Sequence record: SRR22947725_2318 | Direction: 5' to 3' (one strand) | DNA length: 50,597 nucleotides | In this document: positions 12,419-20,187 of the stretch, one piece after another | Numbering within the stretch: position 1 is the first letter of the stretch | How the letters are laid out: each line of letters opens with the position of its first letter | Program-made: the position numbers and the translations under genes | Notes under the pieces: model-generated | Told to the model about the DNA's origin: nothing | The model's database searches: none | Seen by the model: only the letters and a program-made list of their open reading frames with translations

Positions 12419-13225
12419 TTATTCATCATATTTCCCAAGGCTACGAATCCAGATGTTTCTGAATCGCATGGGGTTGTTATGGTCTTGCAAGTGAATGGCG
12501 CCATGAGGTGGGTGTTGTTTATTGTAGGTTCCAACTTGACGATGGAGGCTGGGGCCTGAGTATTCCTTTTTGTGGTGCAAGAGAACGCCATTGTGTATGA
12601 CGGTGACATTTGCTTTCTTGACCAGCTTTCCATCTTCCCATCGTGCGGTTTCAAAAATAATGTCATAGCTCTGCCAGGCTCCTGGAACTTTGCTGGCATT
12701 TACCAATGGGGGTAGCTGACCATACATCGCACCTGCTTGACCGTCCGCGTAGGTTGGGTTGTTGAATGAATCCAGGACTTGCACTTCATACATGCCGTAA
12801 ATAATGACACCACTGTTGCCGCGACCCTGACTGTTGCCTTCAACTACATGGGGGGTGGCGAACTCAATGTGCAACTGGAAATCCCCAAAGTGATCCTTGG
12901 TTTGGATCGATCCCGATTTAGGCGCCACTTCCATGTAACCATTCTCGACTTTCCAACCGGCTGGCTTGTTACCTGTTTTCCATTTGGAAAGATCGTGTCC
13001 GTCAAAAAGAATGACGGCATCTGATGGAGCTGGAGCCGAGTGGCTGAATGTGGTTCCTGGAGTGACGACTTTGGGAGCAGGACGGTTGGCATCATGCACG
13101 CGCCATTTTTGCCCGGGAATTTCAGGTGTATCCGTATAACCGACAGGGGAGTCTGCTGCTTGTGCAACAGATAAACCTGCCACCGCGATCATCACATTGA
13201 GAATAGAATGCTTCATAAGTTTCAT
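12419..13225 (-). CDS. DUF1080 family protein (3-keto-disaccharide hydrolase-like)
   Basis: Signal peptide, LFDGHDLSKW, GNSGV, YEVQVLDS, WQSYDI and LQDH...FRNIWIR. Confidence 0.92.
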   Translation of the reverse strand: MKLMKHSILNVMIAVAGLSVAQAADSPVGYTDTPEIPGQKWRVHDANRPAPKVVTPGTTFSHSAPAPSDAVILFDGHDLSKWKTGNKPAGWKVENGYMEVAPKSGSIQTKDHFGDFQLHIEFATPHVVEGNSQGRGNSGVIIYGMYEVQVLDSFNNPTYADGQAGAMYGQLPPLVNASKVPGAWQSYDIIFETARWEDGKLVKKANVTVIHNGVLLHHKKEYSGPSLHRQVGTYNKQHPPHGAIHLQDHNNPMRFRNIWIRSLGKYDE

Positions 13226-13355: not shown

Positions 13356-14303
13356 TCAGGGTGTGATTTGTCCTCGGATTTCTCCCCCTCCATTGCCGGT
13401 GGTATGGATGTTAATGTATGCCTCTCCCGACATGATGGCTTGAGCCGTTGCATCCGTCACCTCCGTGCCCCCCATGAAGGTGCCAGAGCGGGAGTTTTCC
13501 GGCTGGTGCAGGTCTGTTCCGCTCAGAGCAAACAATACGCCGGAATTAGTGCCTTTGGGTGCAGGTCCATGGATGTGAGCCGCAGTGAAGTCCGATTGCA
13601 AACCTTCATAGTGCACATTGACCGCAAGGTAATTTCCATCAAGCGAGACGGAACCCGATCCATGCGCTTTGGTTGTCACAGCAGGAACCTCCTGACCACC
13701 CCTTAAGAATACCGTGAAGGTCTGTCCGCCTGAGCCGTCACCCACGCGATAAAACATCGTCGGACCGTCGGCACTTGTTTGGTAAGGGCTGGAGGCATTG
13801 TCCACGGGAAACCATGGGCCCAGAGGACTTCCAGATGATTCCAGAGTCCCGCCTTCCTCCCACGTCAGTGTCAGATCGTTGCCGTCTGCCTGAATGAACA
13901 ATGTCGTGGAAACAGGCTCCGGCGTGGGTATGTCAGGAAAACTGCCCGCAACCCCCGGGTTGGTTACTTGAGCGCCAGCTTCTGCGATGCCGTCGCCGTC
14001 AGGGTCCCCTAATTCAAGACCATTTGAGAAACCATCTCCGTCTGAATCCATGGAAGCAAGCACTTCACTCCAGAAAGGTGCTCTGCTCCCACCCACAATG
14101 GACCGCACCTCATCCCCAAACGGAGTCCTCGGACCACCCCCAGAGCTTCTGATGTGGCAACTTGCGCAACCCAGTGAGTTACCGTTGGGTAACATTGCCA
14201 CTCTAAAACTTCTCGCATGTGCTTTTTCGATGAATGCACAATGCAGAGCACAACCAACAAGCAGCAAGACCGAATAAATCCATTTACTGTTAAAAGATTT
14301 CAT
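13356..14303 (-). CDS. secreted Temptin-like/CxxCH domain + CHRD domain protein
   Basis: Signal peptide; LPNG..CASCH..GGGPRTPFG..W..DSDGDGFSNGLELGDP; C-terminal CHRD (QEVP..AAHIHGPA..YINIHT..GEIRGQI). Confidence 0.85.
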   Translation of the reverse strand: MKSFNSKWIYSVLLLVGCALHCAFIEKAHARSFRVAMLPNGNSLGCASCHIRSSGGGPRTPFGDEVRSIVGGSRAPFWSEVLASMDSDGDGFSNGLELGDPDGDGIAEAGAQVTNPGVAGSFPDIPTPEPVSTTLFIQADGNDLTLTWEEGGTLESSGSPLGPWFPVDNASSPYQTSADGPTMFYRVGDGSGGQTFTVFLRGGQEVPAVTTKAHGSGSVSLDGNYLAVNVHYEGLQSDFTAAHIHGPAPKGTNSGVLFALSGTDLHQPENSRSGTFMGGTEVTDATAQAIMSGEAYINIHTTGNGGGEIRGQITP

Positions 14304-14655
14304 AACTTTCTCAAATAATTTGCCCCATCCTGCACGCGAGTCAACCCAGCCTTGAGTTTCAAATGATTTTTCATGATTGTTTTTTGAATGAAAAATAAAT
14401 ACGGATACCGACGCTCTTTAAGTTTGTTTCATGAACAACGCACCATCACAATAATCCTGACAAAATTTTAGTCATTCAAAAAGTGAGCATGATTATGACG
14501 CGTGAAAAACTTGCACTGACCCCTGGCATGGGGGTGATTTCTGAAAAGCTTCCCAAAGGAGAAAGCTTTTTCGTAATCATCAAATGTTTCCAAAATCAAA
14601 TTGCAAATGTGTATGCCCTTTGGCGATTTTTGATTGTCATCTTTTGGAGAGAATA

Positions 14656-14955
14656 TCAATTGTGCTTTGATCGATGCTTACTTAACGCTTGTCGGAGTTC
14701 GTCGAAGGTGAGCGCTCCATCAGTGTTCGTGTCGGCTGAGTTGAATAAGTTATCAGGATTAGCGGAGCGTTGAGCGGCTTGGGATTCGGTAAACTCTTTA
14801 TGGGAGAGCTCGCCATCACCGTCGACGTCCAGTGCTTGGAAACGCTTCTGGGCATCGTTCATGGCTTGTTTTCGCTTTGCAAACGGGCGCTTGCTCTGCG
14901 GGCTTGCACAGCCGGTGATTATCAAGGCCAAAAGTAGGAGTAGCAGTGTTTTCAT
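14656..14955 (-). CDS. EF-hand lipoprotein
   Basis: Lipobox IITGC and two EF-hand loops, DVDGDGELSHKE and DTNTDGALTFDE. Confidence 0.85.
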   Translation of the reverse strand: MKTLLLLLLALIITGCASPQSKRPFAKRKQAMNDAQKRFQALDVDGDGELSHKEFTESQAAQRSANPDNLFNSADTNTDGALTFDELRQALSKHRSKHN

Positions 14956-14970
14956 CAAAGATTTGAGACT

Positions 14971-16659
14971 TTAGGGGTTGGTGATGACACGGAAGTAATT
15001 CTTCTGCTTTCCATTGGGTACAATGGGCATAACCGTATAGCCGTAGTTTGCGGACGAATGAGCGGTTGATGAATACGGATACCATTCCAAGAGATCGTCT
15101 GAGCGTTCGATCTTCCACGAATTAGAAACCGACTCGTAAATAAGAGAATGAGTTTGATCGCTATTCTTGCGTATCTGCAATGAAGGCAACTGCTCGGAGT
15201 CTCCAGGATCGAGATGGTTCAGGGAAGTGTTCTCGTCGCCCTCCCGGTAGTCGACGTAGTTGAATCCCAGAAGATACATTTCGTCTGTGGTCTTGCCTCC
15301 CCACCCGCTCGCCTTCGGGGGCATGCTGGGGTTCATGGGATTATCAGCCGTGTTGTCGTAGGTGGCGATGGCATGGATGGTCGAACCTTTGTCAATTTTT
15401 AGGTATCTTGGCAGGGGGTAGTCCCCCTGCCAATTGAAGTCCCATGAATCGATTTTGAGAAAATTTTGGCGATTGCCCTCGGGATCGATGGCGTAGATTT
15501 CCCAGCTTTTCCCAAGCAAATGGCAGTGTGGATAGATACTGATGAGGCTAATGTCTTCCTCCACGTTCCAGATACCGTGGAAGCGGGAGATTTCGTCAGG
15601 AGGCAGTTTGAAGAGTGACCAGCCTTCGAGCCTGCCGCCGAAGCCTTCTCCTAACCGACCAGCAATATTGCCGCCGTTTCCGGCCCCGCCGAAACCGTTC
15701 TGGCCGAATTCTTCGGCAAGTTCTTGGACAACGTCGAGACGTTCTGACAGCTTGAGCTCTGGAGGTTGTAGTGTGTCTTCCTTAACGAGATCGAAGGGCA
15801 TCATCTGGCGTGTTTTGAGATAGCGCTCCACAGGCTCATCGGCGAAGAACAGGTTGACGCCGGATTGATCGGAATCCCTCACCGGCCATGGGGCATAGTG
15901 GGTTTGCATGAGAATGTCAGCACCGGCTGGTAGTTTAATGCCCACCCCTTTTGGTAAACGTAGAGGAACCGCGCCAGGTGTGTAGCCGGGGAGCTGAGCT
16001 TGGGGACTGATAGGTATGCCAAATCCGCCAAAGACTTCGTAACCAACAAGCGGATCACTCGCATCGCTCTCGCGCGCCTGTCCCGTGGTATCAAAAGCAA
16101 GCAACCCGTGATGTAAGATGGTGCGGTTGCCTGGGCGGAACTCGACGCCAACGAGATCGCGGTCTTCGTCTAGCCCGGTGGGCAATACAAAGACGCGGTA
16201 TTCATCTGCATTACTCCCCTTGATCTGATAGGGTTCGTCGACACGTAAGGTGAGGTCGGGGTTGCCCAGGGCGGAACCATTGGGGAACGTGGGAATGGGT
16301 GCTTCCAAAGCCGGGTTGCCCTCCGGCATCCCGGCTTTGATCCACTGGTCGATGGTTTCGACCTCTTGATCAGTTAACCCGCGCTCACCCAAAAACTTGA
16401 ATTTGCTAAATTCGCGATCAGGCATCCAAGGTGGCATGTAGCCCTTGCGCGTGACACTGAGAATGGTGTAAGCCTCGTCACGTACTTCTTCAAAGTTTGT
16501 CAGCGGAAACGGGCCGATTTCGCCAGCACGATGACAAACGGTGCAGTTGTTGTAAATGATGGGCGAGATGTCCTTGGTATAGGTAACTGTGTTTTGGCCC
16601 GTCAGGGGGGGCAGACAAATGAAAGACAATGTCAGTGCTGTGATAATCTTTTTTTTCAT
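14971..16659 (-). CDS. cytochrome c-fused copper type II (PHM/DBH-like) monooxygenase
   Basis: Likely start is MKKKIITAL (signal peptide) at 16659. Contains CTVCH + MPPW, and candidate Cu ligands LHHG, QTHY, PHCHLLG, DEM; also WDFNWQ. Confidence 0.88.
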   Translation of the reverse strand: MKKKIITALTLSFICLPPLTGQNTVTYTKDISPIIYNNCTVCHRAGEIGPFPLTNFEEVRDEAYTILSVTRKGYMPPWMPDREFSKFKFLGERGLTDQEVETIDQWIKAGMPEGNPALEAPIPTFPNGSALGNPDLTLRVDEPYQIKGSNADEYRVFVLPTGLDEDRDLVGVEFRPGNRTILHHGLLAFDTTGQARESDASDPLVGYEVFGGFGIPISPQAQLPGYTPGAVPLRLPKGVGIKLPAGADILMQTHYAPWPVRDSDQSGVNLFFADEPVERYLKTRQMMPFDLVKEDTLQPPELKLSERLDVVQELAEEFGQNGFGGAGNGGNIAGRLGEGFGGRLEGWSLFKLPPDEISRFHGIWNVEEDISLISIYPHCHLLGKSWEIYAIDPEGNRQNFLKIDSWDFNWQGDYPLPRYLKIDKGSTIHAIATYDNTADNPMNPSMPPKASGWGGKTTDEMYLLGFNYVDYREGDENTSLNHLDPGDSEQLPSLQIRKNSDQTHSLIYESVSNSWKIERSDDLLEWYPYSSTAHSSANYGYTVMPIVPNGKQKNYFRVITNP

Positions 16660-16672
16660 AAACGTGCGTTCG

Positions 16673-17185
16673 TTAGAATTTAGTGAAGGGAATGAAGCAA
16701 CCGATGGCTTCGGTGCTTTTCGGCTCAACGGCTTCGCCTTTGGCGAGGGTTTCAAGAACTTCGAGGAGATCGTGCGAAGTCGTGACGCGGCGGCGTTTGC
16801 CGAAGTCGGCGTAGGTGTTGTCGATGCGGCCTCGGTAGAGTGTCTTGCCTTCCCGGTCAAGGACGACGACTTCCGGGGTCACCTTTGCTCTCAAATGATG
16901 CGCTTTGCTTAGACTCGAATCGGGTTCGATGGCAAATGGGATCTTAAACTTGGCCTTGAAGGCGGCCACGCTTTGCTTCGTGGCTTTGCTAGAGGAGACG
17001 TAACCACGAAAGGCGATGCCTTCCTTCGCGTAGCGCTCTTGGAGTTTAGAGAGCGTCTTGGTATGATAACGTGCAATGGGGCAGTCTTCCTTCAGGAAGA
17101 CATGCACCGTTGCAATGGGTATTGGCTTCTTGTCTCCAACAGCAACCGTGGCGAGAAGGAGAAGGATTGTGGTGATAATCTTCAT
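16673..17185 (-). CDS. secreted redoxin / AhpC-TSA family (PRX-like) protein
   Basis: Signal peptide, FLKEDCPIA, AKVTPEVVV, YRGRIDN and C-terminal AIGCFI. Confidence 0.88.
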   Translation of the reverse strand: MKIITTILLLLATVAVGDKKPIPIATVHVFLKEDCPIARYHTKTLSKLQERYAKEGIAFRGYVSSSKATKQSVAAFKAKFKIPFAIEPDSSLSKAHHLRAKVTPEVVVLDREGKTLYRGRIDNTYADFGKRRRVTTSHDLLEVLETLAKGEAVEPKSTEAIGCFIPFTKF

Positions 17186-17192
17186 GCCTCCC

Positions 17193-17220
17193 ATACCCGT
17201 GGGAGTTACAAAGCGTTACT
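17193..17220 (-). promoter_or_regulatory. ECF sigma promoter upstream of the redoxin-monooxygenase genes
   Basis: AGTAAC-N17-GGTAT, 7 nt before the ATG at 17185; matches the motif upstream of the sigma gene. Confidence 0.65.
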
Positions 17221-17237
17221 GGGCAATGAAGATTTCT

Positions 17238-17636
17238 TCAGTGAACCGCCTGACGACCCTCAAACACCTGCTGCAGCAGTGGCAGGTCATCGCGCACGGC
17301 ATTGTGGAATTCTATCTGCTGCTCGTCAGTCAATTCGGCGAGAATGCCCTGACGGGTGTCTGTCAGAATCTTCCAGAAGCGGGGCCGAAATTCCTCGCGA
17401 AGACCTTGTTTTTGTTCCCGGAATTCTGTGAGGATCTGTGCGATTTTTTGGTCTTGTTCGGGCGGCAGGGAGAGTTTGGCGAGGCTCGCATTAAGCCGTT
17501 CCGAAAAAATCGATGGCCGTTCGAGTGCTCTGGCAAGCATATTGCGGTAGGTAATCCTTGTTCCTGTGACACCGGTGATGACGCCTGTCAGGAAGAGTAT
17601 GACAAAGGCAATAATGATTTTCTGTTTTGTGTTCAT
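17238..17636 (-). CDS. membrane-anchored helical periplasmic protein (Spy/CpxP / heavy-metal-sensor-like)
   Basis: N-terminal TM helix and repeated L-x-L-x-x-E-Q motifs (LSLPPEQ, LTDEQQ). Confidence 0.7.
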   Translation of the reverse strand: MNTKQKIIIAFVILFLTGVITGVTGTRITYRNMLARALERPSIFSERLNASLAKLSLPPEQDQKIAQILTEFREQKQGLREEFRPRFWKILTDTRQGILAELTDEQQIEFHNAVRDDLPLLQQVFEGRQAVH

Positions 17637-17935
17637 GGTGTGATGACAGTATTGAATTCAGAATTCCAAGCGCTGGCCAACTCTTCGGTGCCTGCTGTAA
17701 GGCTGGGGAGACCACTGGTATACATGATTACCTCCGAGGTTAGAAAGGCCGCAACGACAAAGGTCGCAGCCCAAGCCAGTTTCGGGAGGAGGAAATCAAT
17801 CGTGATCACATTGTTAGCCGAAGCTGGCGCGGTCAGCGACATGACTTGATCGGTAAAGTTCTCCGGAGGCGCGACAGCGGGCGCTTCACGAGCGGTGCGG
17901 AAGAGTTTCTCAAGTTTAGGTTCGTTGTCTTTCAT
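17633..17935 (-). CDS. putative single-TM anti-sigma factor
   Basis: ATGA overlaps with both neighbours; 'LEKLFRTAR..PPENFTDQVM' followed by a TM helix. Confidence 0.75.
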   Translation of the reverse strand: MKDNEPKLEKLFRTAREAPAVAPPENFTDQVMSLTAPASANNVITIDFLLPKLAWAATFVVAAFLTSEVIMYTSGLPSLTAGTEELASAWNSEFNTVITP

Positions 17936-18507
17936 GGGGATTCTTGAAGACGAATCAGGTTATCGGTAAGTTTTTTTTTGGCGCGATGGAGGGCGACGCG
18001 AATGGTTCCTGCCGCTTTGCCGGTGAGTTGACCGATCTCTGGCGACGTGCGCCCTTCGATCTCAGCCATGGTTAAAATGACCTGTTCATCCGGGGTGAGG
18101 TCCACCATGCAGCGATTCAATATTTCCCGCGCTTCCATGGCCTCGAGCGGGGCGGAGTTATCTTCCTGTTGAAGCCATTCAAGAGCGCCTTCACCGAGTT
18201 GGGAAAACGGCACCTGGTGGCGAAAGCGTTTCTCAGCACGCACATGATTGAGCGCCACGTTCGTCGCCATGCGGGACAACCAGTTTTCAAAAGGTGCTTT
18301 CAAAGGGTCGAATTTCTCCAGTTGCCGCCAAGCTTTGACAAAGACGTCCTGCGCCATGTTCTCCACACGACCGCGGTCACGCTCGTAGCGTGAAAGGATG
18401 GCAAAGACGCGTTCTTGGTATCGCTCGACCAACTCGCAGAATCGCTCAGGGCGACCCGACAGGATCGAACGTACGCAGGCGGCGTCTTCCTCAGCTATAG
18501 CGGACAC
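17932..18507 (-). CDS. ECF RNA polymerase sigma-70 factor
   Basis: Region 2 (LVERYQ..AQDVFVKAW..FENWLSR) and region 4 (EIGQLTG..GTIRVALHRA). Confidence 0.95.
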   Translation of the reverse strand: MSAIAEEDAACVRSILSGRPERFCELVERYQERVFAILSRYERDRGRVENMAQDVFVKAWRQLEKFDPLKAPFENWLSRMATNVALNHVRAEKRFRHQVPFSQLGEGALEWLQQEDNSAPLEAMEAREILNRCMVDLTPDEQVILTMAEIEGRTSPEIGQLTGKAAGTIRVALHRAKKKLTDNLIRLQESP

Positions 18508-18520
18508 ATTTATACTCTCT

Positions 18521-18548
18521 ATACAAGGGAGGCTTCTGAAGTGTTACA
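18521..18548 (-). promoter_or_regulatory. autoregulatory ECF promoter
   Basis: TGTAAC-N17-TGTAT directly upstream of the sigma GTG start. Confidence 0.65.
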
Positions 18549-18945
18549 ATGAATCTTTGCTGGCTATCGCCGATCTTTATGTTTGAAATCCCTTTAACGT
18601 TAGGAACCGTTTGAGAGTCAATCAAGCGGTTCTCAGTCTGTCCTTTTGATACAAAGGCATCGTCATGGAGTTAAGAGGACTGCGGCTGCAAGTTTATCGC
18701 GGAGGAGAATGCAGGGATCGAATCTGCAACTTTCGAGTGGACGCACCCCAGAGTCACGGCGTCAAATAGAACATTTCTCAGTGACTTCGTTCATGGAATA
18801 CCCAGCACGGCTGAGGGTAATCTTCTGCTTGTGCGTGCTTGCCTCCTTGTTTCCTCAAGGAGGCAAACCGCTTAATGCTTCCGAGGAAAGTCAGCCTTCC
18901 CTGCGGGAGTTGCTTCATTAAATTTGAAATAACGATACCTTATGC

Positions 18946-20187
18946 TTACTTCCTTTTGAAATGATGGTCTGCAAATTTCATAAATTGTTCCCAATCATAA
19001 GGATCAATGGAGTGTCCGCCTTCTCTGATATGGAAGCCGACATCGGAAGTCAGGATGGGCTTTCTGATTTCTGGTAAATCGGGTGATGTCAGGCCTTTTT
19101 TCCCGAGAAATTCATAAACCTCACTTGCATGGTAAGCGGATAAATATTCTCCCCGCGGATCGGCCCATGTGTCCTCGGTTGAGCTGTGGACATACACCGG
19201 TCTTGGAGCGATGCAGGCAAGTAGCATGTGTTGGTCAATGGGGAGATCATCTTCCTGCTCCACAAATTTCCAGGCATTGCGGCACAGCCAGTATGGAAAT
19301 CGCGTCACCATTTTCTTCAGGGTTTCACCGGATTTCCGTCTCCATAGTGCGGCGCCTGCGCAACCTGATTGAGCTGAAATGGCCAGAGCGAATCGATCAT
19401 CCTGTGCCGCGGTCCAAAGAGTTGCCTTTCCCATTTTTGAATGGCCCATGATGGCAATGCGTGTATGGTCAACATCGGCATCTGTTTCCAGATAGTCCAT
19501 ACCCCGACTGGCTCCATAAGCGCATGCTGACAATACTCCCCACTCGTGAGCCTTTGGAAAACTTTGCCCCTCGGGATAAAAAAGTTTGTGGATGCCCTTG
19601 AGGAATTCAACCTCATTGTGCTTCAGGAGATCCTGCTGATAAACCGCACAGAACCCATACCCTCTGTCGAAGAATGCTCCAAGTGGCCAACCGTTTTTCA
19701 AGAATCCGGGGCGCGTTTCTGACGCGTCAAAGTCATTTGATTGGGTATTATTGAAACTGTGTTTCAAAAATGCCGGAACAGGTTTGTCGGCATTGTTAGG
19801 AACAAAAACGAGAAAATGCATCGAAACCCGGCCCTTTTCGTTTTCCAATATGATTTTGACATCTTTTCGGGTGGCTTTTCCGTCCATGAAATCGGGGTCT
19901 TCTTTGACCACTTCAAATCGCACATCGACAGGTTGAGCCGGTTTTGGAATGCGTCCGTAAATCAGGTTGCTGTAGAGCGAAAGGATCTCGGGTCTGCGAA
20001 TGGAAAACCACTCCTCGGGCGTTTTGATCTGCTTGCCTCCTGAGGAAACAAGCAGGGGAGGAAGGTCGTATTCCGGAAGTCTGTTTTCCTCATAATTGAC
20101 ATCCTGGTCATACTCCTTGGCCTCGCGGGCACTGAGTAGTGTCGGGACAAGGAGAGTGATCAATAATAAATATACAACGCGGTTCAT
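18946..20187 (-). CDS. CE15-like (glucuronoyl/acetylxylan) esterase, alpha/beta hydrolase
   Basis: Signal peptide, RRPEI..YGRIP, GHSKMGK nucleophile elbow, QSGCAGAAL, LPIDQH..IAPRP, WADPRGE and REGGH. Confidence 0.88.
   Translation of the reverse strand: MNRVVYLLLITLLVPTLLSAREAKEYDQDVNYEENRLPEYDLPPLLVSSGGKQIKTPEEWFSIRRPEILSLYSNLIYGRIPKPAQPVDVRFEVVKEDPDFMDGKATRKDVKIILENEKGRVSMHFLVFVPNNADKPVPAFLKHSFNNTQSNDFDASETRPGFLKNGWPLGAFFDRGYGFCAVYQQDLLKHNEVEFLKGIHKLFYPEGQSFPKAHEWGVLSACAYGASRGMDYLETDADVDHTRIAIMGHSKMGKATLWTAAQDDRFALAISAQSGCAGAALWRRKSGETLKKMVTRFPYWLCRNAWKFVEQEDDLPIDQHMLLACIAPRPVYVHSSTEDTWADPRGEYLSAYHASEVYEFLGKKGLTSPDLPEIRKPILTSDVGFHIREGGHSIDPYDWEQFMKFADHHFKRK

What the first reader, a model, noticed from the sequence alone, without database searches (positions are those of the whole stretch)
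13935..14213. Bacterial Temptin-like domain carrying a CxxCH heme motif, near a DBH-like monooxygenase
Seen: RSFRVAMLPNG..CASCH..GGGPRTPFG..W..LASMDSDGDGFSNGLELGDP..TNPG. Recalled: mollusc pheromone Temptin has IPNG..GVGH..G.GP.NPFG..W..L..MDSDGDG.SNG.ELGDP..SHPG, and I recall Temptin-like domains fused to invertebrate DBH-like monooxygenases. Here the Temptin His aligns with the His of a CxxCH motif. Inference: the domain may be an ancestral heme c/Ca2+-binding electron-transfer partner of copper monooxygenases. The adjacent genes would be the unfused counterpart of the eukaryotic fusion.
Basis: partly seen in the sequence, partly recalled or inferred. Interest (0 to 1): 0.8.

Follow-up and report, generated by a model that had tools for sequence, protein, structure and literature searches.

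The report
Bacterial temptin-like haem-motif protein with CHRD domain
A marine verrucomicrobial gene encodes a secreted protein whose head is a bacterial relative of the sea-slug pheromone temptin carrying a haem-attachment motif, joined to a superoxide-dismutase-like domain; its position beside a copper monooxygenase gene holds only in its closest relatives.

Summary
Window 13356-14303 (-) encodes a 315-aa exported protein. Residues 35-103 match Pfam Temptin_C above its cut-off. Its CxxCH is invariant in 35 of 35 same-architecture homologues and present in 137 of 138 family representatives. All 13 snail temptins I read keep the His at identical spacing but lack both Cys.

The haem-c/Ca reading is plausible but untested. 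Temptin-monooxygenase fusions in lophotrochozoans are in print (PMC2762978). A general partnership with copper monooxygenases is not supported:
- 0 of 138 representatives carry a Cu2_monooxygen domain.
- 0 of 80 species-level loci have a DBH-like gene within 10 kb.
- 0 of 20 DBH-like loci have a temptin-like neighbour.
- The neighbour has its own cytochrome c domain.

The adjacency recurs only in the window's own clade, in 7 of 45 metagenome loci. It is missing from sibling lineages that keep the gene.

New here: the C-terminal CHRD domain keeps a three-His plus Arg pattern like Cu-only SODs. This scan has noted the same temptin-like CxxCH domain on other DNA at least five times.

The parts
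13356..14303 (-). Gene for the 315-aa temptin-like/CHRD protein (P0001)
   Evidence: ORF. Homologues at 92-32% identity. dN/dS 0.18-0.21 against three relatives.
14214..14303 (-). Signal peptide, residues 1-30 (MKSF...EKAHA), cleavage predicted before R31
   Evidence: Read from the sequence; no predictor was run. Across the family, -1 is Ala in 109 of 122 and -3 is small or aliphatic, directly before a conserved Arg. Caveat: LVGC at residues 15-18 looks like a lipobox in this protein and its closest relatives only.
13935..14213 (-). Temptin_C-like domain, residues 31-123
   Evidence: Pfam PF24784 E 7.5e-10, 39.6 bits against 27. AF2 model from 100 sequences: pLDDT 95.2, pTM 0.87. No solved analogue.
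14154..14168 (-). CxxCH motif (C46-A-S-C49-H50), putative covalent haem-c site
   Evidence: Invariant in 35 of 35. Present in 137 of 138 representatives. These are the only Cys of the mature protein.
13989..14048 (-). Two DxDxDG loops (DSDGDG...DPDGDG, residues 86-105), TSP3-like Ca2+ site
   Evidence: D86, S87, D88, D90, G91, N94, G95, E97, D100 invariant. TSP3_bac E 0.011, below its cut-off. The DSDxD motif is called the Ca2+ site of temptins in PMC10075465.
13719..13934 (-). Pro-rich linker and small beta-sandwich spacer, residues 124-195
   Evidence: AF2 strands 135-188 with pLDDT above 80. No Pfam family. The module recurs in three large proteins of the nearest held genome.
13365..13718 (-). 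CHRD domain, residues 196-313, SOD-like beta-sandwich
   Evidence: Pfam PF07452 E 4.6e-26. Chordin CHRD structures at E about 1e-25. Foldseek best hits are Cu,Zn and Cu-only SODs, all weak, E 2e-3 and above.
13374..13577 (-). CHRD His243-x-His245, His300 and Arg310: candidate copper site
   Evidence: H243, H245 and H300 are 90% or more conserved; E308 and R310 are invariant. Chordin lacks these His. They align, weakly (E 0.11), with VAHYHK and YINVHHG of the Cu-only SOD DR_0644, whose Cu ligands are His74, His76 and His182 (PMC9823218).
14315..14344 (-). Promoter-like site TTGACT-18-AATTAT just upstream of the start codon
   Evidence: Consensus scan, 9 of 12 matches. The region gave 6 such sites against 4.0 expected, so this is weak.
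14285..18891 (.). About 4.6-kb accessory cassette missing from the sibling MAG. Genes: EF-hand lipoprotein 14656-14958, cyt c-PHM/DBH-like monooxygenase 14971-16659, redoxin 16673-17194, LTXXQ-like 17238-17636, putative anti-sigma 17633-17935, ECF sigma 17932-18507 (all on the - strand)
   Evidence: blastn of L004 against the window: collinear at about 94% identity, except that this stretch is replaced by about 200 bp. Gene families. The cassette is present in 7 of 45 metagenome loci.

Best explanation
This is a real, independently functioning gene for an exported three-part protein.

(1) The head, residues 31-123, is the bacterial form of the Temptin_C domain. I infer that it binds one haem covalently through C46 and C49, with H50 as the proximal ligand, and is stiffened by a TSP3-like double Ca2+ loop. 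No conserved Met or second His exists. The sixth ligand would therefore be absent, or would be the free alpha-amino group of the conserved mature N-terminal Arg, as in cytochrome f. The two conserved Arg (R31, R34) are candidates for holding the propionates.

(2) A Pro-rich linker and a small beta-sandwich act as a spacer.

(3) The CHRD domain has the SOD fold and, unlike chordin, keeps an H-x-H plus H triad and an Arg, like Cu-only SODs. I infer a copper site that exchanges electrons with the haem head, for example in handling superoxide or another small oxidant in the periplasm or at the surface.

Shown: domain membership, motif conservation, architecture, purifying selection, and the gene's persistence without the cassette. 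Inferred: haem binding, the copper site, and electron flow between them.

The DBH-like gene nearby belongs to a separate ECF-sigma cassette that this clade gained once beside the gene.
For: Domain membership and motif:
- Temptin_C and CHRD both score above their Pfam cut-offs.
- CxxCH is invariant in 35 of 35 homologues and present in 137 of 138 representatives. These are the only Cys in the mature protein.
- The domain sits directly after a signal peptide, at a median precursor position of 27.
- Cytochrome c maturation genes (PF01578) are present in both near genomes searched.

Conserved N-terminus:
- -1 is Ala in 109 of 122, and the Arg lies 15 residues before the first Cys in 102 of 122.
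- No column other than H50 has Met, His, Lys or Tyr at a conserved level; the highest is Met at 29% at one position.

Comparison with animals:
- 13 of 13 snail temptins keep the His but lack both Cys. Animal temptins carry conserved disulfides instead (PMC2762978).

Partner domains that suggest redox or copper chemistry:
- CHRD in 17 of 138 representatives.
- A cupredoxin plus three CHRD domains in P0128, and a PQQ-type GSDH in P0246.
- A Cu-binding_MopE plus Temptin_C cluster in the ESM Atlas, score 0.81, a lead only.

CHRD domain:
- His triad and Arg are conserved but absent from chordin.
- SODs are the best fold matches.

Independence from the cassette:
- L004, L121, L025 and L005 keep the gene without it.
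- 12 of the 80 loci encode temptin-like plus CHRD in one ORF, and none of these has a DBH-like neighbour.
- dN/dS is 0.18-0.21.
Against: - No experiment shows haem or copper in any member of this family.
- The domain matches no cytochrome family in Pfam or NCBIfam. It matches no solved fold: Foldseek gave 0 matches at E up to 10, and VIA gave 0 of 48161 chains at Z of 2 or more.
- No sixth ligand could be identified.
- Most partner domains are Ig-like, lectin-like or T9SS tails with no obvious redox role. Electron transfer to a fused centre therefore cannot be the domain's general job.
- The link between CHRD and Cu-only SOD rests on weak scores (E 0.11; Foldseek E 2e-3 or worse).
- A lipobox-like LVGC at residues 15-18 could make this particular protein a lipoprotein. 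R31 would then not be a free N-terminus.
- In the full-length AF2 model the head was not folded (pLDDT below 50), so no inter-domain geometry is available.
Confidence: 0.5

Rival explanations
1. One reading: the temptin-like haem protein is the soluble electron carrier that feeds the cytochrome c domain of the adjacent PHM/DBH-like monooxygenase, and the genes are an unfused version of the lophotrochozoan temptin-monooxygenase fusion.
For: - Temptin replaces DOMON at the N-terminus of DBH-like proteins in Aplysia, Pomatoceros and Lottia (PMC2762978).
- The order DBH-like, EF-hand, temptin-like, all on one strand, recurs in 7 of 45 metagenome loci.
- Three of these are from a lineage only 72% identical. 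There the protein has lost CHRD, lies 82 bp after the EF-hand gene, has a different downstream gene, and is under purifying selection (dN/dS 0.18).
Against: - 0 of 80 loci across phyla, 0 of 20 loci from the DBH side, 0 of 138 fusions, and 0 of the 120 listed DBH-like homologues with PF24784.
- The seven positive loci are close kin, and the tree fits one gain and one loss.
- L004 (88% identical) and L121 keep the gene without the cassette.
- The monooxygenase already has its own cytochrome c domain.
- In the window a 352-bp spacer with a promoter-like site separates the genes.
Confidence: 0.15
2. The CxxCH does not carry haem. The Cys pair and His, perhaps with the N-terminal amine, bind copper or another metal directly, and the domain acts as a metal-binding or delivery module for copper domains.
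For: - The domain recurs with copper-related domains: CHRD in 17 of 138, a cupredoxin in P0128, and a MopE cluster (lead only).
- In animals it is fused to copper monooxygenases.
- Temptin is listed among markers of copper exposure in mussel larvae (PMC8696127, passages read).
- Snail temptins keep the His without the Cys, so the His has a role that does not need covalent haem.
- The domain has no cytochrome-like fold match.
Against: - C-x-x-C-H with fixed spacing in an exported domain is the canonical haem-c signature, and it holds in 137 of 138.
- From recall, periplasmic copper sites usually use Met and His rather than CxxC.
- Most partner domains are unrelated to copper.
- The copper-exposure link in mussels is a transcript listing, not a binding result.
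Confidence: 0.15
3. The head is a non-redox, Ca2+-stabilised structural or binding module, like TSP3 or dockerin, that caps surface proteins. The CxxC is a structural disulfide and the His is incidental.
For: - Partners are mostly Ig-like repeats, lectin-like domains, dockerin, cohesin and T9SS tails.
- Animal temptins are described as Ca-binding, disulfide-stabilised extracellular proteins that act in pheromone complexes and shell formation.
Against: - A structural disulfide would not need an invariant His next to it, nor exact two-residue spacing.
- Animal temptins place their disulfides elsewhere and have Gly at the position of C49.
- The conserved mature N-terminus points to a specific site rather than a scaffold.
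Confidence: 0.12

Closest known systems
Temptin (Aplysia and Biomphalaria water-borne pheromone protein) and Pfam PF24784 Temptin_C
   Same: - The Pfam model matches above its cut-off.
- Motif order is shared: PNG, His, GGGxxNxFG, W, DSDxDG-xNGxELGDP, xPG.
- Spacing is identical: His to FG is 12 residues and W to DSD is 8 (by eye).
- Both are N-terminal, directly after a signal peptide.
   Different: - Bacterial members have C-x-x-C-H where 13 of 13 snail sequences read x-[GA]-[VA]-G-H.
- The window's mature protein lacks the Cys that form the two temptin disulfides.
- It is fused to a CHRD domain.
- No pheromone role is conceivable here.
Lophotrochozoan temptin/DBH-like monooxygenase fusion proteins (Takahashi et al. 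2009, PMC2762978)
   Same: A temptin-type domain and a two-domain copper monooxygenase occur together, in place of the usual DOMON.
   Different: - Here they are separate genes, with another gene and 352 bp between them.
- The pairing is confined to one clade.
- The bacterial monooxygenase has its own cytochrome c domain.
- No bacterial fusion was seen in 138 representatives.
Cytochrome f (haem c ligated by His of CxxCH and by the alpha-amino group of residue 1). The properties of cytochrome f are recalled, not taken from a call.
   Same: - CxxCH lies close to a conserved mature N-terminus, 15 residues before the first Cys in 102 of 122.
- No Met or second His is available as sixth ligand.
   Different: - No sequence or fold similarity was found.
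- The domain is about 95 residues, loop-rich and carries Ca loops.
- N-terminal ligation is only an inference.
CHRD domains of chordin (PDB 9QVV, 9IGM, 9RD6) and Cu-only SODs (DR_0644 8ACA; Candida SOD5 4N3T)
   Same: - Profile match to chordin CHRD at E about 1e-25.
- SOD-like beta-sandwich.
- The H-x-H plus H pattern aligns with DR_0644, whose Cu ligands are His74, His76 and His182.
   Different: - Chordin lacks the His and binds no metal.
- The match to DR_0644 is weak (E 0.11).
- No SOD activity or copper has been shown for any bacterial CHRD that I could find.
PSCyt1-type N-terminal CxxCH modules of planctomycete and verrucomicrobial multidomain proteins (recalled, not tested)
   Same: A single-CxxCH head domain at the N-terminus of large secreted proteins with lectin-like and Ig-like domains.
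   Different: No Pfam PSCyt match was returned for this protein. The temptin-like domain carries the DxDxDG loops.

Membership tests
Pfam Temptin_C (PF24784) | Profile HMM score above the gathering cut-off | tested here: met
   39.6 bits against 27, E 7.5e-10, residues 35-103. 137 of 138 representatives also match.
Pfam Temptin_C (PF24784) | DSDxD(G) Ca2+-binding loop | tested here: met
   DSDGDG at residues 86-91, invariant in 35 of 35. The motif is used as the temptin marker in PMC10075465.
Animal temptin (pheromone protein) | Two conserved disulfide bonds | tested here: not met
   The mature protein has only C46 and C49. The Cys positions seen in 13 snail sequences (NPC, LC before DSD, DPxC) are absent. 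The disulfides are described in PMC2762978.
c-type cytochrome | CxxCH haem-attachment motif in an exported protein | tested here: met
   C46-x-x-C49-H50 after a signal peptide. Invariant in 35 of 35, present in 137 of 138.
c-type cytochrome | Cytochrome c maturation machinery in the organism | tested here: met
   PF01578 found above cut-off in G001 and G002, 2 of 2 near genomes. The window's own assembly is not held.
c-type cytochrome | Identifiable distal (sixth) ligand or a known cytochrome fold or family | tested here: not met
   No conserved Met, His, Lys or Tyr besides H50. No cytochrome family in Pfam or NCBIfam. No fold match in the PDB.
c-type cytochrome | Covalently bound haem | not testable with these tools
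   Needs haem stain, pyridine haemochrome or mass spectrometry.
CHRD domain (PF07452) | Profile match and SOD-like beta-sandwich | tested here: met
   E 4.6e-26, residues 196-313. Chordin structures at E about 1e-25. pLDDT 84-96 and SODs as best fold hits.
Cu-only superoxide dismutase | Three-His copper site (H-x-H plus H) with active-site Arg | tested here: inconclusive
   H243, H245, H300 and R310 are conserved. They align with DR_0644 only at E 0.11. DR_0644 ligands are taken from PMC9823218.
Redox partner (operon mate or fusion) of PHM/DBH-like copper monooxygenases | Recurrent adjacency or fusion across independent lineages | tested here: not met
   Fusions: 0 of 138. Adjacency: 0 of 80 and 0 of 20 from the DBH side. 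7 of 45 metagenome loci are positive, but all belong to the window's clade and fit one gain.

The most novel reading that the evidence does not exclude
The bacterial Temptin_C domain is an unrecognised class of small monohaem c-type cytochrome. It would be held by a Ca2+ loop and ligated by His and the mature N-terminal amine, as in cytochrome f. The animal pheromone and shell protein temptin would be its haem-less descendant, having lost both Cys and gained disulfides while keeping the His. In this protein the haem head would pass electrons to a Cu-only-SOD-like CHRD copper site. In this clade it might also serve the neighbouring cytochrome c-PHM-like monooxygenase, echoing the lophotrochozoan temptin-monooxygenase fusion.
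Probability: 0.25. Interest if true: 0.75.

Novelty: new variant of a known kind. Interest (0 to 1): 0.5.

Why it matters
If the head domain binds haem, a family with over a thousand 50%-identity clusters (1261 at E up to 1e-3) would be a new kind of c-type cytochrome module. The family spans Verrucomicrobiota, Latescibacterota, Ignavibacteriota, Planctomycetota and other phyla. It has no solved structure or fold analogue.

The result would also give the animal temptin family a biochemical ancestry. That includes its unexplained fusion to copper monooxygenases in lophotrochozoans.

Bacterial CHRD domains would gain a testable function as copper sites of the Cu-only SOD type.

All of this can be tested with one recombinant protein.

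Tried and rejected
- Complex prediction of the temptin-like head with the CHRD domain, with haem and Ca riding along: no verdict (score 0.00, mark 0.34; the alignments were not used). It says nothing either way.
- Full-length AF2 model from 35 sequences: the head was unfolded (pLDDT below 50), so no inter-domain geometry is available.
- Idea that the beta module of this protein (residues 125-195) and the C-terminal tail of the DBH-like protein are the same module: no BLASTP alignment at E up to 100, and no Pfam family for either. Dropped.
- My first reading of the cassette as a strain-specific insertion was too strong. Metagenome loci showed it in 7 of 45 loci, spread over three sublineages, so I revised to a clade-restricted accessory cassette with one gain and one loss.
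- The first DBH-family HMM gave weak hits in the 80 loci. All were traced to T9SS sorting tails; the catalytic-core HMM gave none.
- Search for a conserved neighbour of temptin-like genes: clustering 843 neighbouring ORFs from 79 loci gave only antisense artefacts and kin-level synteny (largest real cluster 12 loci, all Ignavibacteria/Melioribacter). A DUF5777 barrel and a YceI gene each recurred in 5 loci.
- The nearest held genome G001 (79% complete) lacks the gene. The window's own assembly is not held.
- Metagenome contigs could not be extended, so the far side of the cassette in the 72% lineage is unseen.
- Paper searches: 'temptin' with haem or monooxygenase at word-start matched 'tempting' and were useless. 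Whole-word 'temptin' found 45 papers, of which I saw a listing of 30, all on animals. 'temptin' with 'cytochrome c' found 4 papers, listing only, all animal studies. Temptin_C, PF24784, 'temptin-like domain' and 'temptin domain' found 0 papers. No listed paper described a bacterial cytochrome c-PHM fusion (listing only).
- Eukaryotic temptin sequences could not be brought into the alignment or profile tools. The comparison with them is by eye on a supplement.
Full report
**What is there.** Window 13356-14303 on the minus strand is a 315-aa ORF. Its parts, in order, are:
- Residues 1-30: a signal peptide ending AHA, followed by RSF.
- Residues 35-103: a match to Pfam Temptin_C (PF24784) at E 7.5e-10, 39.6 bits against a cut-off of 27.
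- A Pro-rich linker and a small beta-sandwich, predicted with pLDDT above 80.
- Residues 196-313: a CHRD domain (PF07452, E 4.6e-26).

The finding's coordinates are exactly residues 31-123, and every quoted motif is present. NCBIfam has no model for the protein. The gene is under purifying selection, with dN/dS of 0.18-0.21 against three relatives.

**Is the CxxCH meaningful?** Yes.
- In an alignment of 35 proteins sharing the Temptin_C+CHRD architecture, C46, C49 and H50 are invariant. So are F62, G63, F77, W78 and the DSDGDG..NG.E..D loop.
- A search of residues 30-124 against 1.84 billion cluster representatives found 1261 proteins at E up to 1e-3 and 394 at E up to 1e-10.
- Of the 138 listed representatives not already seen, 137 have exactly one CxxCH about 40 residues before the DxDxDG loop. 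The exception reads GNTCH and is otherwise near-identical to a normal member.
- The mature window protein has no other cysteine.
- Both near genomes that could be searched carry a cytochrome c maturation gene.

**Relation to animal temptin.** I could not bring eukaryotic sequences into the alignment tools. The S16 Table of PMC10075465 prints 13 Biomphalaria pfeifferi temptin-like proteins, which I compared by eye.
- All 13 read W-x-[GA]-[VA]-G-H and none has CxxCH.
- His to the Phe of the FG motif is 12 residues in all 13, as in the window (H50 to F62).
- Trp to DSD is 8 residues in both.

Both Cys are replaced in the snail, with C49 becoming Gly. The snail proteins carry Cys at other positions. 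PMC2762978 describes two conserved disulfides in temptin, and the bacterial protein has none of these Cys.

The domain is thus a shared scaffold. It carries a haem-attachment motif in bacteria and disulfides in animals.

**The head domain itself.** With 100 aligned sequences AlphaFold2 gives a confident model: pLDDT 95.2, pTM 0.87, short helices, and the CxxC at the end of a helix. The model has no analogue among solved structures. Foldseek found 0 matches at E up to 10, and VIA-align found 0 of 48161 chains at Z of 2 or more. A profile search of PDB sequences hit nothing in the head.

No column other than H50 holds a conserved Met, His, Lys or Tyr, so there is no classical sixth ligand. What is conserved is the mature N-terminus. 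Of the 138 representatives, 122 have an R-x-x-R motif before the CxxCH. Among those 122:
- The residue before the first Arg is Ala in 109.
- The -3 residue is small or aliphatic.
- The Arg lies 15 residues before the first Cys in 102.
- The Arg sits at a median precursor position of 27.

This is the pattern of a signal-peptidase I site that leaves the conserved Arg as residue 1. From recall, cytochrome f ligates its haem with the His of CxxCH and the alpha-amino group of residue 1. The same arrangement is my inference here. The two conserved Arg are candidates for binding the propionates.

One caveat applies. This protein and its closest relatives also have a lipobox-like LVGC at residues 15-18 that the wider family lacks.

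**Partner domains.** In Pfam scans of the 138 representatives, Temptin_C is always the N-terminal domain and is found in 137 of 138.
- Most partners are Ig-like repeats, lectin-like domains, dockerin, cohesin or T9SS tails.
- CHRD is the commonest recognisable non-Ig partner, in 17 of 138.
- One protein (P0128) combines the head with a cupredoxin and three CHRD domains. Another (P0246) carries a PQQ-type glucose/sorbosone dehydrogenase.
- None of the 138 carries Cu2_monooxygen or Cu2_monoox_C.
- The ESM Atlas lists only bacterial clusters. These include a MopE-plus-Temptin_C cluster at score 0.81 and cytochrome c7 at 0.85, both leads only.

**The CHRD domain.** The profile matches the newly solved chordin CHRD structures at E about 1e-25. 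Foldseek ranks Cu,Zn and Cu-only SODs first, though weakly, with a best E of 2.1e-3. The chordin paper (PMC13382577, passages read) describes the SOD-like fold and reports no metal in chordin.

The alignment shows why chordin differs. It has VAMTLET and NVGT where the bacterial proteins have AAHIHG and NIHT. H243, H245 and H300 are at least 90% conserved, and E308 and R310 are invariant.

The same profile weakly hits the Cu-only SOD DR_0644 (E 0.11), aligning VAHYHK and YINVHHG. The Cu ligands of DR_0644 are His74, His76 and His182 (PMC9823218, passages read). A copper site in this CHRD domain is therefore a reasonable inference, but not a demonstrated one.

**The neighbour and the association.** The gene at 14971-16659 encodes two domains:
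- A cytochrome c domain: CxxCH plus M75 in GYMPPW, conserved at 95% or more.
- A PHM/DBH-like core: HH183/184, H254, H378-x-H380 and M461, conserved at 98% or more across 121 sequences.

Cu2_monoox_C scores 22.7 bits against a cut-off of 23. A family profile hits only PHM chains in the PDB, 9 of 9, at E 0.4. The enzyme therefore has its own haem domain.

The gene belongs to a run of genes on the same strand: ECF sigma, putative anti-sigma, an LTXXQ-like protein, a redoxin, the monooxygenase and an EF-hand lipoprotein. The closest named genome, a Pedosphaera sp. MAG (L004), encodes a protein 88% identical. It is collinear with the window at about 94% nucleotide identity, except that window 14284-18892 is replaced by about 200 bp. 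That genome has only 35% and 29% paralogues of the monooxygenase elsewhere.

Tests of the association across wider sets were all negative:
- 80 temptin-like loci from species-representative genomes of many phyla: no relative of the monooxygenase, EF-hand, redoxin or sigma gene within 10 kb, by tblastn.
- The same 80 loci: a catalytic-core HMM found nothing among 8907 six-frame ORFs.
- 12 of these loci encode temptin-like plus CHRD in one ORF, and none has a DBH-like neighbour.
- From the other side, the DBH-like family occurs in 182 of 301 genomes sampled from the order. 20 of its best-matching loci, 240,917 bases in all, hold no temptin-like or CHRD ORF. The same temptin HMM found 84 ORFs in the 80 positive-control loci.
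- 0 of the 120 listed DBH-like homologues carry PF24784.

**The complication.** A scan of metagenome contigs for the window's own Ca-loop peptide gave 45 loci. Seven have the DBH-like and EF-hand genes directly upstream of the temptin-like gene:
- Three at 92% identity.
- One at 83% (partial).
- Three at 72%.

In the three loci at 72% the protein is only 194 aa. It has the head plus the beta module and no CHRD. It lies 82 bp after the EF-hand gene and has a different downstream gene. L121 (85% identical) lacks the cassette, like L004.

A tree of 11 sequences puts L004 and L121 in one well-supported clade and the 72% lineage in another. The outgroup lacks the cassette. One gain and one loss explain the pattern.

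The adjacency is therefore older than a strain-level insertion, and I corrected my first reading accordingly. It is still a single event among kin.

**Literature.**
PMC2762978 (passages read) reports temptin in place of DOMON at the N-terminus of DBH-like proteins of Aplysia, Pomatoceros and Lottia.
- I found no paper that treats temptin-type domains as haem proteins or describes prokaryotic members (listings only). bioRxiv supplements and subscription journals were not searchable.
- This scan has described the bacterial temptin-like CxxCH domain on other DNA at least five times.

**Verdict.** The protein is best read as a secreted two-centre protein, with a probable haem-c head of the temptin family and a probable copper CHRD domain. 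It functions independently of the nearby monooxygenase cassette. Haem and copper binding remain untested.

Noticed in passing
window 14971-16659 (-): A cytochrome c domain (CxxCH plus Met) is fused to a PHM/DBH-like copper monooxygenase core, with all six presumed Cu ligands conserved. The family is large: 1380 homologues scored, and it was found in 182 of 301 genomes of the order, often as several paralogues and with T9SS tails in Bacteroidota. It is mostly unnamed, and no paper on it appeared in my one search.
   Followed up: partly
window 14285-18891: An accessory cassette of about 4.6 kb (ECF sigma, putative anti-sigma, LTXXQ-like, redoxin, monooxygenase, EF-hand lipoprotein) is present or absent between a glucuronyl-esterase-like gene and the temptin-like gene in otherwise collinear relatives. 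No repeats or mobility genes were seen at its ends.
   Followed up: partly
L090, L094, L098 (for example L094 1743-2327): A sister lineage has a 194-aa form of the protein that stops exactly where CHRD would begin (FYRVGGSSGG, then stop). It is still under purifying selection and lies 82 bp after the EF-hand gene.
   Followed up: partly
P0128 (819 aa): The architecture is temptin-like head, two Big_7 domains, a cupredoxin with a C..H....M type-1 copper pattern, a beta module and three CHRD domains. This is the most redox-suggestive member seen.
   Followed up: no
L045, L055, L062, L064, L065, L067: Small T9SS-type temptin-like genes have a DUF5777 membrane beta-barrel gene and a YceI gene nearby, each family in 5 loci. 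This matches the module described in earlier scan note e1-1391727.
   Followed up: partly
S16 Table of PMC10075465 (snail temptins): By eye, 5 of 13 snail sequences have His, in an HP.. or HS.. start, at the position 8 residues before the Pro of PNG, where bacteria have the conserved mature N-terminal Arg. The authors predicted a signal peptide for only one of the 13, so the true N-termini are unknown.
   Followed up: no
window 12419-13225 (-) and 18946-20187 (-): The conserved flanks of the gene in relatives are a 3-keto-disaccharide-hydrolase-family protein and a glucuronyl-esterase-like (GCE_fung) protein. Neither has an evident link to the temptin-like gene.
   Followed up: no
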